Assembly (NCBI GenBank): GCA_964346245.1
Contig: CAYFUF010000005.1
Span: forward strand, 250 to 64,249
DNA: 64,000 bases
Source of the DNA: an uncultured Peptoniphilaceae bacterium
GTDB taxonomy: Bacteria > Bacillota > Clostridia > Tissierellales > Peptoniphilaceae
Direction of reading: 5' to 3'
Of this stretch, positions 59,905 through 62,842 are shown one piece after another (the stretch's first letter is position 1; every line of letters begins with the position of its first letter). The notes beneath the pieces are model-generated. The model worked only from the letters and a program-made list of their open reading frames with translations. It searched no databases and had not been told where the DNA came from. A program made the translations under genes and the position numbers.

Positions 59905-61086
59905 CTAGTCAACCTTAACGTTTGCCTCGAATTCACTAACGACTTCCTCTAGCAAACGGGGATCATCAATCAAATCTAGAGCGGTAGCAACGAGACCTTG
60001 AACTGTTAGCATAGCAGAGTCCTCTGCATAGGGTGTCAAACTTGCTTCGCGGAAGGCAACGGTGTGCCCTGGCGTTTTCACGCCGGCAGTGATATCGAAG
60101 TAGGGGTTAATGCTGGGAACCACTTGGCTGACGTTTCCCATGTCAAGTGAGCCCATGGCCATCCTATCTTCTCGTATCATGGTCACTCCGAGGCTTGCCA
60201 TATTGTCGTTATAGCGCTCCGATAGGGTCTTATTGGTGACCATGTTCATGAAAGTGTTCTCATCATAGGTCCACTTGAGTTGGCAGCCGCTAGCGAGAGC
60301 AGCAGCCTCGGCACAAGCAAGCACTCTCGTTTCAATGAGGTCAAGCTCTGACATGGACAAGGCCCGCACATAAAACTCCAATCGACTATAATCGGGAATG
60401 ATGTTTGCAGCCTCGCCCCCCGACTTGATTACCCCGTGAATGCGGTTGGTGGGATTCATCTGCTGGCGCAACATGCTGGTTGCGACATAGAAGTTCACTG
60501 CTGCATCTAAAGCATTAATGCCTTCATGGGGACTCTCCGCTGCATGGGACGTCTTGCCGAAGAATTCGAAAGAAAGAGATTTCATGGCCATACTGGTGGA
60601 TGACCCCTGCCAATTATCAGCCGGATGGGTACAAAAGGCAACATCGATGTCATCGAAGGCACCTTGATCAGCGAAGTTTACCTTCGTTCCCCAGGTTTCC
60701 TCTGCTGGTGTGCCCAAGACGATGACCCTACCTCCCCTATCCTTAACAAACTCGCTGAGCACTATGCCGCTTATGGTGTCGGTTGCACCAAGCAAGTTGT
60801 GACCGCAAGCGTGGCCTATGCCTGGTAGGGCGTCGTATTCAGAAAGGAAAGCCAAGCTTGGCCCCTCCTTGCCCGAATCGTAAACCGCCCGGAAAGCAGT
60901 ATCAAAGCCAAGATAGGGCATTTCCACTTGAAAGCCATATTTTTCGAGAAGGTCAACATGAGCCTGAGCAGATAGGTGCTCAGCCAAGCCCAGCTCAGGG
61001 TTGTCATAGATGTAACGGTTAAGCTGTCTAAGTTCCAGGCGATAGCGCTCAGCTACCTCCTTAATCTGTTCCATAATAGGTGTCAT
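59905..61086 (-). CDS. M20-family amidohydrolase/dipeptidase, AbgB/PM20D2-like
   Basis: 393 aa. Motifs are EYDALPGIGHACGHNLLG and a C-terminal GSLDMGNVSQVVP...GHT, comparable with E. coli AbgB (GHGCGHNLLG, STDVGDVSW...PLHT) as I recall it. Confidence 0.78.
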   Translation of the reverse strand: MTPIMEQIKEVAERYRLELRQLNRYIYDNPELGLAEHLSAQAHVDLLEKYGFQVEMPYLGFDTAFRAVYDSGKEGPSLAFLSEYDALPGIGHACGHNLLGATDTISGIVLSEFVKDRGGRVIVLGTPAEETWGTKVNFADQGAFDDIDVAFCTHPADNWQGSSTSMAMKSLSFEFFGKTSHAAESPHEGINALDAAVNFYVATSMLRQQMNPTNRIHGVIKSGGEAANIIPDYSRLEFYVRALSMSELDLIETRVLACAEAAALASGCQLKWTYDENTFMNMVTNKTLSERYNDNMASLGVTMIREDRMAMGSLDMGNVSQVVPSINPYFDITAGVKTPGHTVAFREASLTPYAEDSAMLTVQGLVATALDLIDDPRLLEEVVSEFEANVKVD

Positions 61087-61100
61087 AAAAGTCCTTTCTA

Positions 61101-62504
61101 TCAGAAGGGGCCGTAGCGAAGGGCCGTGGCAATGAGTAGGAAAATCATACCGATGATAAGCCAGATGAGCATGAGCTTGCTCAGCCAGCGGACATATTTG
61201 GTATAAGGAATCTTGGCCATGCTGAGTTGGGCCATAAGGACGCCAGACGACGGCATAATTGAATCCATGAAGCCATCACCAAATTGGAAGGCAAGAACCG
61301 CCGTCTGCCTGGTGATACCTAGCGTGTCTGCTAAAGGAACCATAATTGGCATAGTAGCAGCCGCCTGACCCGACCCTGAAGGGACAAAGAAGTTGATGAT
61401 AAGCTGTATGATAAACATGCCCATAACAGCAATGAAAACTGGTAGATTATCCAAGGAAGCCCCCAGCCAATAGATGATGGTGTCGATGATTAAGCCAGCC
61501 TCCATGATGACCAGGATGGTCCTCGCTACGCCAACAACCAGAGCTGCCGATATAATCTCCGCTGCCCCCTCCAAAAAAACCTCCATAATCGTAGATAGGT
61601 TCAAACCAGATAGAAGGCCCGATAGGAGGGCCATGGCCAAGAACACCGCCGCTATCTCCGTTATATACCAGCCCCAACTGGAGGCCCCCATAGCGATGAG
61701 GGTGAAGCCAAGGATAACGACGCCCAAGATCAAAATATGGGGCAGCTCGAAATGGTCAATTACTTGGTCACTGCTATCTTCCTCACGGAGGAAACTTCCC
61801 GTCTCGGGATTGTAGAGAAGAGATTCCCTTGGGTCCCTCTTGATCTTCCTTGCATAGGAAATGAGGTAGGCTGATGTCACGATATTCAAAACCCCAAGGA
61901 TAATTAACCGGTACCACAAGCCCGAAGTGAAAGGCAGCTCAGCTATGCCCTGGGCAACCCCAATGGTAAAGGGGTTCATAAAGCCAGAATAAAAACCCAC
62001 AGCTGCACCAAGAGTAATCATGCCCATACCGATCATGGCATCAAAACCCAATGACTGGGCAAGGGCAATCCCTATAGGTATAAAGACGATGCTCTCCTCC
62101 GACATGCCCATCGTTCCACCAGCCAAGGAGAAGATAAAAACAAATAGGGGAATAACTAAGACCTCTTTGCCCCTCAAACGCTTAGCTAGCCTGCTTACCC
62201 CAGCTTGAATCATCCCCGACTTGTTTATGATGGCAAAAGATCCGCCGGTGATGAAGATAAAGAAGATAATATCAGCTGCTGCATTGAAAGCGGTGGGTAT
62301 AGCTTGCAAAAATTCCCAGGGACCTTGAGGGTTGGCTTCCACCCTGTGGTAAGAGCCTGGAACAACCAGGGTCCGGTCATTGACGATTGTCCGTTCGAAC
62401 TCGCCCGCTGGTATTACCCAGGTCAATAGGGCGACGAATAGGGCCATACCGAGTAGAATCACATAGGTATGGGGCATCTTGAAACTTTTTCTGTTACGAA
62501 TCAT
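61101..62504 (-). CDS. yfcC: YfcC-family (DcuC-like, putative basic amino acid/peptide) transporter
   Basis: Start trimmed to ATG 62504 (MIRNRKSFKMPHTYVILLGMALFVALLTWVIPAGEFER, a typical YfcC N-terminus; RBS AAGGAG). The product is 467 aa and polytopic. Confidence 0.8.
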   Translation of the reverse strand: MIRNRKSFKMPHTYVILLGMALFVALLTWVIPAGEFERTIVNDRTLVVPGSYHRVEANPQGPWEFLQAIPTAFNAAADIIFFIFITGGSFAIINKSGMIQAGVSRLAKRLRGKEVLVIPLFVFIFSLAGGTMGMSEESIVFIPIGIALAQSLGFDAMIGMGMITLGAAVGFYSGFMNPFTIGVAQGIAELPFTSGLWYRLIILGVLNIVTSAYLISYARKIKRDPRESLLYNPETGSFLREEDSSDQVIDHFELPHILILGVVILGFTLIAMGASSWGWYITEIAAVFLAMALLSGLLSGLNLSTIMEVFLEGAAEIISAALVVGVARTILVIMEAGLIIDTIIYWLGASLDNLPVFIAVMGMFIIQLIINFFVPSGSGQAAATMPIMVPLADTLGITRQTAVLAFQFGDGFMDSIMPSSGVLMAQLSMAKIPYTKYVRWLSKLMLIWLIIGMIFLLIATALRYGPF

Positions 62505-62551
62505 GTTTACTCCTTCATTTTTTAGTCCACCCGCCACTAAGCAATCCATAC

Positions 62552-62790
62552 AAAAAAGGGAAAGCTTGCGCTTCCCCTACAAAATTATAGAAAAATCTCA
62601 CTGACAGGTAAGATAGCACAACACCACTAAGGATGACAGTCCCATCCCTATTCGGAATGGACCCAGCAATTCCCCGTGCCCGAGGAAGAACTTCGGCAAA
62701 ATCTCCTTTCAGCCCTTTCTTCGCTTGCCAGCTCCAGGGTCTACTCTTATCTTTTGCGCCTCTACCTCACCAAAAAGATGAGGATTTGAT
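62552..62790 (-). promoter_or_regulatory. Lysine riboswitch (L-box) with intrinsic terminator
   Basis: The minus strand carries the conserved L-box blocks in order: GGTGAGGTAGAGGCGC..AAGAGTAG..CTGGAG..GAAAGGGCTGAAAGGAGA..TGCCGAAG..TGCTGGG..GGGACTGTCA. They are followed by terminator GGGGAAGC-GCAA-GCTTTCCC and T6 (62552..62577), 47 nt before the yfcC ATG. Confidence 0.85.
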
Positions 62791-62813
62791 ATTTAATTTT
62801 AGTTATAGTGGTC

Positions 62814-62842
62814 ATTCTAACAGAGAGCTGAACAAAAGTCAC
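62814..62842 (-). promoter_or_regulatory. Promoter of the lysine-riboswitch transcript
   Basis: Minus strand reads GTGACT-17 nt-TAGAAT, about 35 nt upstream of the aptamer. Confidence 0.55.

What the first reader, a model, noticed from the sequence alone, without database searches (positions are those of the whole stretch)
59905..62842. Lysine riboswitch in front of a YfcC-family transporter and an AbgB/PM20D2-like M20 hydrolase
The leader carries all the conserved L-box blocks in order (AGAGGCGC, AGAGTA, TGGAG, GAAAGGGCTGAAAGGAGA, TGCCGAAG, GCTGG, GGGACTGTCA). A clean terminator follows (8-bp stem, GCAA loop, T6), so it should be a lysine OFF switch.
L-boxes classically control lysC/dap genes and lysine permeases. 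Here the controlled genes are a YfcC/DcuC-like carrier and an M20 enzyme of the GHACGHNLLG subgroup. As I recall, members of that subgroup include E. coli AbgB and mammalian PM20D2, which is described as a beta-alanyl-lysine / Xaa-basic dipeptidase.
This predicts a lysine-salvage module: import of a lysine-containing dipeptide or N-acyl-lysine, then hydrolysis to release lysine. I cannot tell whether this regulon member has been described.
Basis: partly seen in the sequence, partly recalled or inferred. Interest (0 to 1): 0.6.

Follow-up and report, generated by a model that had tools for sequence, protein, structure and literature searches.

The report
Lysine riboswitch controlling carrier plus dipeptidase
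A genuine lysine-sensing RNA switch turns off a two-gene operon (a YfcC-type membrane carrier and an HmrA/PM20D2-type metal dipeptidase) that most likely scavenges lysine for a bacterium that seems unable to make it; the arrangement is already listed for Clostridioides difficile, but nobody has tested its function.

Summary
Rfam's lysine model matches window 62606..62772 (-) over its full length at 96.2 bits (cut-off 30). A 9-bp terminator with a U6 tail follows, and a competing antiterminator reuses the 3' strand of P1, so this is an OFF switch. It controls a tightly packed operon: a YfcC/DcuC-family carrier (61101..62504) and a cytoplasmic M20D hydrolase (59905..61086).

- **Enzyme family.** The hydrolase belongs with S. 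aureus HmrA and PM20D2 (276 and 264 bits). An AbgB-like structure scores only 39 bits, and DapE also scores far below its cut-off.
- **Host.** The 81%-complete assembly and a congener show no lysA, dapB or dapF, so this is probably a lysine auxotroph.
- **Other occurrences.** The same L-box, carrier and hydrolase unit occurs in Sporomusaceae, several Clostridium species and one further family. A 2024 review lists it for C. difficile CD3100-3099.
- **Arginine link.** Close relatives of the pair (M20 up to 77% identical) sit behind arginine-specific T-boxes. The cassette therefore looks like a basic-amino-acid salvage unit whose sensor has been swapped.

This scan also noted the arrangement before on other DNA (e1-3009494). 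Verdict: a real, ordinary riboswitch. The target is known but uncharacterised, so this is a new member of a known kind. Whether the carrier's cargo is a lysine conjugate or free lysine is unresolved.

The parts
62814..62842 (-). sigma-70-like promoter (GTGACT, 17 nt, TG-extended TAGAAT)
   Evidence: Consensus scan, 9 of 12 matches with a TG extension. The -10 region is only partly conserved in the congener. This is a prediction only.
62606..62772 (-). lysine riboswitch aptamer (L-box, RF00168)
   Evidence: 96.2 bits against a cut-off of 30, E 3e-24, full model. Changes on both sides of base pairs in P3 and P4 relative to the congener's copy (92.9 bits) preserve the pairing. A natural C-to-U variant at 62654 keeps a G-U pair.
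62566..62621 (-). predicted antiterminator (three-helix alternative fold)
   Evidence: ViennaRNA gives -16.7 kcal/mol. The fold pairs the aptamer's 3' end and the P1 3' strand with downstream sequence, and it sequesters the terminator's 5' arm. The middle helix is retained in the congener through swapped wobble pairs. This is computed, not measured.
62551..62578 (-). intrinsic terminator (9-bp stem, GCAA loop, U6)
   Evidence: Found by the terminator scan. The hairpin is -14.1 kcal/mol. It is almost identical in the congener.
61101..62504 (-). yfcC-like carrier, 467 aa (PF03606 DcuC/YfcC family)
   Evidence: Pfam 355.5 bits over the whole profile. [quoted passage not shown] About 11-13 hydrophobic segments. 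AGGAG lies 6 nt before the ATG.
59905..61086 (-). M20D metallo-amidohydrolase/dipeptidase, 393 aa, HmrA/PM20D2 clade
   Evidence: TIGR01891 at 207 bits against a cut-off of 154. PDB hits: HmrA 3RAM at 276 bits and 'Xaa-Arg dipeptidase' 8XZC/7YH4 at 264 bits. The expected metal and catalytic residues C94, H96, E129, E130, H154 and H341 are present and invariant among homologues. No signal peptide or hydrophobic segment. The start lies 14 nt after the yfcC stop.
59840..59891 (-). 11-bp inverted repeat with a 30-nt loop followed by UUUCUU; probable end of the operon
   Evidence: Read directly from the sequence. It was not detected by the terminator scan, whose loop limit is 8. The ogt-like gene behind it has its own GGGAG and an ATG at 59759.

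Best explanation
This is a lysine-repressed salvage operon.

When lysine is plentiful it binds the L-box aptamer and locks helix P1, so the terminator forms and transcription stops before yfcC. When lysine is scarce, the 3' strand of P1 joins an antiterminator and RNA polymerase reads through.

The YfcC-type carrier then imports a small lysine-bearing compound. The most likely cargo is a dipeptide containing lysine (Xaa-Lys or Lys-Xaa) or an N-acyl-lysine. The cytoplasmic HmrA/PM20D2-type M20D hydrolase cleaves it to free lysine.

Shown here: the riboswitch, the alternative folds, the gene families, the operon packing and the comparative pattern. Inferred: lysine binding, the cargo and the enzyme's specificity.
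For: - **Aptamer and platform.** Full-length RF00168 match at 96.2 bits. Terminator and competing antiterminator. Structure-preserving changes relative to the congener.
- **Auxotrophy.** lysA, dapB and dapF were not found in this assembly (81% complete) or in the congener (91%). They were also not found in three family members whose L-boxes drive an ABC importer. The dapA-family hit is far below its cut-off.
- **Enzyme relatives are dipeptidases.** HmrA prefers Met-X and lies in operons under S-box, CymR or CodY control (PMC9486568). PM20D2 is deposited as 'Xaa-Arg dipeptidase'.
- **Need for import.** The enzyme has no export signal, so its substrate must be brought into the cell.
- **Recurrence.** L-box, then YfcC, then M20D occurs in Sporomusaceae, three Clostridium species and three genomes of another family. 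In that family an L-box-NhaC unit follows directly. It also occurs in C. difficile.
- **Arginine-regulated relatives.** Relatives of the cassette sit behind Arg (AGA) T-boxes in Intestinibacter, another Peptostreptococcaceae genome and a Tissierellaceae MAG. The codon rule was calibrated on six T-boxes of known specificity. M20 identity between an L-box-linked and an Arg-T-box-linked copy reaches 76.6%.
- **Separate free-lysine route.** The genome already holds a LysXY-type ABC importer, so a second system for a different lysine source is plausible.
Against: - No enzyme or transport assay exists for any member.
- Streptococcal ArcD, from the same carrier family, is linked to uptake of free arginine (PMC4129364). 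The carrier here may therefore take free lysine.
- The nearest M20 homologues (Carnobacteriaceae, about 59% identical) have neither a YfcC gene nor an L-box nearby.
- I found no residue pattern separating Lys- or Arg-linked enzymes from the others.
- HmrA's preference is for the N-terminal residue and PM20D2's is for the C-terminal one, so the position of lysine in the substrate cannot be predicted.
- The auxotrophy inference rests on incomplete assemblies.
- The RNA evidence is limited to one low-depth contig from an RNA library that bridges the terminator.
Confidence: 0.45

Rival explanations
1. Same riboswitch logic, but the carrier imports free lysine, possibly by exchange, as ArcD-type relatives do with arginine. 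The M20D enzyme independently trims lysine-containing dipeptides that enter through general peptide permeases. The two genes share a goal but not a substrate.
For: The S. suis arcD mutant is impaired in arginine uptake, and arcD is co-transcribed with a dipeptidase gene, arcT (PMC4129364). NCBIfam names the family 'putative basic amino acid antiporter'. 20 of the 29 sampled YfcC homologues had no close M20 neighbour.
Against: The genome already has a LysXY-type importer for free lysine. Every L-box-controlled YfcC found here is followed by the M20D gene, in at least four lineages. The 14-nt spacing suggests coupled expression.
Confidence: 0.35
2. The M20 enzyme is a diaminopimelate-pathway deacylase (N-acetyl- or N-succinyl-DAP), so the operon belongs to lysine biosynthesis.
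For: M20 deacylases do occur in L-box-controlled dap operons (PMC5584792). There are weak NCBIfam hits to DapE/ArgE models.
Against: The DapE models score 27-39 bits against cut-offs of 218-289. lysA, dapB and dapF were not found in this genome or its congener. The enzyme is only about 24% identical to an M20 gene lying next to an L-box-lysA unit in a relative. Its best relatives are dipeptidases.
Confidence: 0.03
3. The cassette really serves arginine or ornithine (or another amino acid), and the L-box association here is incidental or decaying.
For: Close relatives are in arginine T-box regulons. PM20D2 is named Xaa-Arg dipeptidase.
Against: The aptamer is full-length and high-scoring, and it is maintained by compensatory changes between two species. 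L-box control of this gene pair recurs in several lineages.
Confidence: 0.05

Closest known systems
C. difficile CD3100-3099: lysine riboswitch before yfcC plus an M20D amidohydrolase (PMC11477304)
   Same: Same three parts in the same order: an L-box, a YfcC-family carrier and an M20D hydrolase in an apparent operon. Function is uncharacterised there too.
   Different: The host lineage differs. The window's proteins are only about 41-45% identical to the L-box-linked pairs I could sample from Clostridium and Sporomusaceae. On the M20 tree they fall in a separate clade. I did not fetch the C. difficile proteins themselves.
Classical L-box regulon (lysC, dap genes, lysA, LysXY-type ABC importer, NhaC-type carrier)
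   Same: Same aptamer family and the same terminator-based OFF logic. Relatives of this organism use L-boxes on lysA, lysC, an ABC importer and NhaC.
   Different: The controlled genes here are a YfcC-type carrier and a dipeptidase, neither a biosynthetic gene nor one of the usual candidate lysine carriers.
S. aureus HmrA (PDB 3RAM), an M20D carboxydipeptidase
   Same: Best solved relative (276 bits, aligned over 380 residues). Same GHACGHN and GS-x-D-x-GNVS motifs. Belongs to an amino-acid regulon under S-box, CymR or CodY control.
   Different: HmrA prefers Met-X and is paired with an amino-acid ligase rather than a carrier. It is regulated by methionine/SAM signals, not by lysine.
PM20D2 (deposited as Xaa-Arg dipeptidase; known to me as the beta-alanyl-lysine dipeptidase of mammals)
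   Same: 264 bits over the whole catalytic and lid domains. It acts on dipeptides with a C-terminal basic residue, which fits control by lysine or arginine.
   Different: It is a 454-residue chain in the PDB with an N-terminal extension and has no operon or riboswitch context. I recall it as a eukaryotic metabolite-repair enzyme. Its substrate range is recalled from memory and was not tested here.
Streptococcal arcD-arcT (YfcC-family arginine carrier plus dipeptidase in the arginine deiminase cluster)
   Same: A carrier of the same family is co-transcribed with a predicted dipeptidase and serves a basic amino acid.
   Different: It is catabolic, is induced rather than repressed by its amino acid, and is controlled by protein regulators. 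ArcT is annotated as an Xaa-His dipeptidase, and I did not test its relation to this M20D clade.

Membership tests
Lysine riboswitch (Rfam RF00168) | Covariance-model score above the curated threshold over the full model | tested here: met
   96.2 bits against 30, model positions 1-182 of 182.
Lysine riboswitch (Rfam RF00168) | Helices maintained by compensatory substitutions | tested here: met
   Compared with the congener's copy, P3 and P4 carry changes on both sides of base pairs that keep the pairing. This rests on only two sequences.
Lysine riboswitch (Rfam RF00168) | Expression platform that couples P1 formation to gene expression | tested here: met
   Terminator at -14.1 kcal/mol against an antiterminator at -16.7 kcal/mol that uses the P1 3' strand. 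Computed only.
Lysine riboswitch (Rfam RF00168) | Binds L-lysine and represses expression | not testable with these tools
   Needs in-line probing or ITC, plus termination assays.
M20D amidohydrolases, HmrA/PM20D2 clade | Family model above its cut-off, plus the lid/dimerisation domain | tested here: met
   TIGR01891 at 207.4 bits against 153.75. PF07687 at 33.8 bits against 21.
M20D amidohydrolases, HmrA/PM20D2 clade | Cys-His-Glu-His-His metal ligands and the catalytic Glu | tested here: met
   C94, H96, E129, E130, H154 and H341 are present and invariant in 13 homologues. The assignment of ligand roles comes from my knowledge of M20D structures.
M20D amidohydrolases, HmrA/PM20D2 clade | Closest solved relatives are HmrA and PM20D2 | tested here: met
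   276 and 264 bits. The next hit scores 45 bits.
M20D amidohydrolases, HmrA/PM20D2 clade | Dipeptidase activity that releases lysine | not testable with these tools
   Needs an enzyme assay.
AbgB (p-aminobenzoyl-glutamate hydrolase subunit B) | Close sequence similarity to AbgB-type proteins | tested here: not met
   The AbgB-like structure 3IO1 scores only 38.8 bits over 160 residues. No Abg model appears among the NCBIfam hits.
DapE/DapL deacylases of the DAP pathway | Family model above its cut-off and presence of the DAP pathway | tested here: not met
   27-39 bits against cut-offs of 218-289. lysA, dapB and dapF were not found.
YfcC/ArcD-type carriers (Pfam PF03606) | Full-length match to the family profile and a polytopic membrane protein | tested here: met
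   355.5 bits, profile positions 1-460 of 461. About 11-13 hydrophobic segments.
YfcC/ArcD-type carriers (Pfam PF03606) | Equivalog of E. coli YfcC | tested here: not met
   NF008611 at 347 bits, below its cut-off of 500. It is a family member, not an ortholog.
YfcC/ArcD-type carriers (Pfam PF03606) | Transport of a basic amino acid or its conjugate | not testable with these tools
   Needs uptake assays.

The most novel reading that the evidence does not exclude
YfcC-type carrier plus HmrA/PM20D2-type dipeptidase is a portable salvage cassette for basic amino acids, taking in Xaa-Lys and Xaa-Arg type conjugates. Its sensor is swapped between lysine riboswitches and arginine T-boxes with little change in the proteins. 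If so, bacterial PM20D2 homologues and part of the orphan YfcC family would gain a defined physiological role. Lysine-auxotrophic anaerobes would also have a previously unrecognised route to lysine from dipeptides.
Probability: 0.4. Interest if true: 0.55.

Novelty: new member of a known kind. Interest (0 to 1): 0.35.

Why it matters
The riboswitch itself is textbook. The value lies in its target. Both the YfcC carrier family and the bacterial PM20D2/HmrA-like dipeptidases lack an established physiological role.

The regulatory signals give a clear, testable prediction: the pair supplies a basic amino acid during starvation. Those signals are lysine riboswitches in at least four lineages and arginine T-boxes in three genomes. 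In a likely lysine auxotroph from compost and digester communities, this would be a main regulated route to lysine. The same unit exists in C. difficile, where lysine riboswitches have been discussed as drug targets.

Tried and rejected
- **False proline lead.** T-boxes with a proline codon lie about 2 kb upstream of M20 homologues in Virgibacillus, Oceanobacillus and Ornithinibacillus. I first read these as a proline regulon for the enzyme. Pfam showed that they simply drive proS, which lies upstream of the M20 gene, so I dropped them.
- **Intestinibacter T-box codon.** It could be read as AAG (Lys) or AGA (Arg). Calibration on the pheS, metG, ileS, alaS, leuA and aspS leaders of the same genome fixed the register, and the codon is AGA, arginine.
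- **Specificity residues.** A search for residues separating Lys- or Arg-linked enzymes from the others gave only three conservative differences.
- **Sequencing runs.** Only assembled contigs were available. They place the locus in compost, bioreactor and wastewater samples but cannot show transcript ends or levels. One 205-nt contig from an RNA library crosses the terminator. This is weak evidence and DNA carry-over is not excluded.
- **Literature.** Searches for a characterised YfcC substrate or a PM20D2 structure paper found nothing usable. Rodionov 2003 is not held. Sun 2013 names no such target in its main text.
- **Other regulators.** Rfam found no riboswitch before the YfcC-M20 pairs of six other genomes, or before the reversed M20-YfcC pair of a same-family genome.
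Full report
**The element**

Rfam's lysine riboswitch model matches 62606..62772 over all 182 positions at 96.2 bits, against a gathering score of 30, with E 3e-24. It is the only such match in the 1.51-Mb, 66-contig, 81%-complete assembly.

A promoter-like site with an extended -10 lies at 62842..62814. 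An intrinsic terminator lies at 62578..62557 and is followed by six U.

**Expression platform**

- **P1.** It extends to ten pairs, GGUGAGGUAG with CUAUCUUACC.
- **Terminator.** The hairpin alone is worth -14.1 kcal/mol.
- **Antiterminator.** When the RNA 3' of P5 is folded only up to the terminator loop, a three-helix alternative of -16.7 kcal/mol appears. The aptamer's 3' end and the P1 3' strand pair with downstream sequence, and the terminator's 5' arm is sequestered. This is the standard design of a transcriptional OFF switch.
- **Conservation.** The congener's copy scores 92.9 bits. It differs by changes on both sides of base pairs in P3 and P4 that keep those pairs. It also keeps the middle antiterminator helix through swapped wobble pairs.
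- **Natural variant.** A C-to-U variant at 62654, seen in environmental contigs, turns a C-G pair into U-G.

Lysine binding itself is inferred.

**The genes**

The first gene (61101..62504, 467 aa) starts at an ATG preceded by AGGAG. It matches Pfam DcuC/YfcC end to end at 355 bits. [quoted passage not shown] That is below the equivalog cut-off of 500, so it is a family member and not an ortholog of E. coli YfcC. It has about 11-13 hydrophobic segments.

The second gene starts fourteen bases after the first gene's stop (59905..61086, 393 aa).

- It passes the M20D 'amidohydrolase' model: TIGR01891 at 207 bits against 154.
- It keeps C94, H96, E129, E130, H154 and H341, the expected metal and catalytic residues.
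- It has no export signal.
- Its best solved relatives are S. aureus HmrA (3RAM, 276 bits) and the chains deposited as Xaa-Arg dipeptidase, which I take to be PM20D2 (8XZC/7YH4, 264 bits).
- An AbgB-like structure scores only 39 bits, and the DapE/ArgE models fall far below their cut-offs.

The 'PM20D2-like' label is therefore right, and the 'AbgB-like' label is only a remote family resemblance.

An 11-bp inverted repeat followed by a U-rich run lies at 59891..59840. The ogt-like gene behind it has its own ribosome-binding site. Together they suggest that the operon ends after the hydrolase.

**The host**

- **No biosynthesis genes found.** Family models for lysA, dapB and dapF find nothing in this assembly or in the 91%-complete congener. 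They also find nothing in three family members, one of them 99% complete, whose L-boxes drive an ABC importer. The control genomes respond as expected. The single dapA-family hit is far below its cut-off. The organism is therefore probably a lysine auxotroph, and a biosynthetic role for the hydrolase is unlikely.
- **Relatives.** L-boxes in 29 of 41 related genomes sit before lysA, lysC, a fused binding-protein/permease ABC importer or an NhaC-type carrier. The YfcC-M20 target is restricted to this genus in that sample.
- **Second importer.** The genome also holds the ABC importer, 86% identical to the congener's L-box-controlled copy, but here it has no L-box in front.
- **Habitat.** The locus occurs in compost, bioreactor and wastewater metagenomes.
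I did not test that.

**Comparative pattern**

*Sampling from the hydrolase.* I took the 80 best M20 homologues from one genome per species. A YfcC gene lies directly upstream in eleven. Five of those carry a lysine riboswitch in front, confirmed by the covariance model at 105-112 bits: two Sporomusaceae and three Clostridium.

*Sampling from the carrier.* In 29 homologues drawn from 400 genomes of the phylum, three have an L-box, and all three are followed by the M20 gene. In that family a second L-box follows and drives an NhaC-type carrier. Six of the 26 without an L-box have a close M20 neighbour, and two more have only a weak M20 match. These cases are few and partly related, so I give no statistic.

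*Tree.* The window's enzyme groups with Carnobacteriaceae homologues that have neither an L-box nor a YfcC gene. It lies far from the Clostridium and Sporomusaceae L-box clade, and the L-box label needs at least three changes on the tree. Both proteins of the window are only 41-45% identical to those other L-box-linked pairs. Either the sensor was recruited repeatedly, or it was lost many times.

**The arginine twin**

In Intestinibacter bartlettii the YfcC-M20 pair is preceded by a T-box (129.6 bits). Its specifier loop could be read as AAG or AGA.

I calibrated the register on six other T-boxes of the same genome whose genes are unambiguous:

| Gene | Codon |
|---|---|
| pheS | UUC |
| metG | AUG |
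| ileS | AUC |
| alaS | GCA |
| leuA | CUU |
| aspS (Asn type) | AAC |

In every case the codon is the three bases before the last purine of the loop. By that rule the YfcC-M20 leader reads AGA, arginine. The leaders of argF, argG, argC and a basic-amino-acid binding protein in that genome read the same.

Arg T-boxes also sit directly before the M20 gene in another Peptostreptococcaceae genome and in a Tissierellaceae MAG. These arginine-regulated enzymes are up to 76.6% identical to lysine-regulated ones, and the carriers are 64% identical. The cassette thus serves lysine in some lineages and arginine in close relatives. This fits an enzyme clade that acts on dipeptides with basic residues.

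**Literature**

- A 2024 review of C. difficile riboswitches lists a lysine riboswitch before CD3100-3099, described as yfcC plus a putative M20D amidohydrolase with uncharacterised function (PMC11477304). The regulon member has therefore been described.
- HmrA is reported as a carboxydipeptidase that prefers Met-X. Its operon lies under S-box, CymR or CodY control in staphylococci (PMC9486568). This is a precedent for the clade acting in amino-acid salvage under the matching sensor.
- In S. suis, ArcD belongs to the same carrier family, is co-transcribed with a dipeptidase gene and contributes to arginine uptake (PMC4129364). This supports a basic-amino-acid role, but it also keeps open the possibility that the carrier moves the free amino acid.
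- The amidohydrolases in L-box operons listed by Mukherjee et al. are DAP-pathway genes in dap operons, which is a different case.

**Verdict**

This is a real, conventional lysine OFF riboswitch on a known but unstudied target. I favour import and hydrolysis of a lysine conjugate at about 0.45. A free-lysine carrier working beside an independent dipeptidase comes next at about 0.35. I rate the broader claim, a lysine-repressed operon for lysine acquisition, at about 0.8.

The same arrangement was noted earlier in this scan on other DNA (e1-3009494). So was a related pair of lysine-sensing leaders on amidohydrolase genes (e1-2558677). These are leads, not evidence.

Noticed in passing
window 31657-31770 (+): FMN riboswitch (RF00050) at 121.3 bits, full length.
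   Followed up: no
window 10113-10196 (-) and 5319-5401 (-): Two tRNA genes of 83-84 nt. The aligned one (10113-10196) carries a long insertion in the variable region.
   Followed up: no
G000 contig C25:1671-3600 (outside the window) against L016: The LysXY-type fused binding-protein/permease gene is 86% identical to the congener's copy. It lacks the lysine riboswitch that precedes that copy. Only about 110 nt, holding the upstream gene's terminator, separates it from the previous gene.
   Followed up: partly
L098:3040-3360 and L113, L118, L120, L133 (Intestinibacter bartlettii): An arginine (AGA) T-box regulon covers argF, argG, argC, a binding protein and YfcC-M20. The YfcC leader is followed by a second partial copy of the T-box antiterminator/terminator segment at about 3303-3342.
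   Followed up: partly
L169:2037-6951; also L155, L156: Two lysine riboswitch units lie in tandem: L-box-YfcC-M20D, followed directly by L-box-NhaC-type carrier. Together they form a small lysine-uptake island.
   Followed up: partly
L076, L081, L085, L089, L092, L097, L101, L107, L110: In Virgibacillus, Oceanobacillus and Ornithinibacillus an M20 homologue lies downstream of a proS gene driven by a proline (CCU) T-box. Whether it is co-transcribed is unknown.
   Followed up: partly
L168 / L150 (a genome of the window's own family): The same gene pair occurs in reverse order (M20 then YfcC, about 46% identical), with no Rfam-detectable leader.
   Followed up: partly
window 59241-59759 (-): An ogt-type methylated-DNA-protein-cysteine methyltransferase gene lies directly behind the operon, as in the congener. 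The 231-aa ORF call from a GTG start overlaps the M20 gene and is probably too long.
   Followed up: partly
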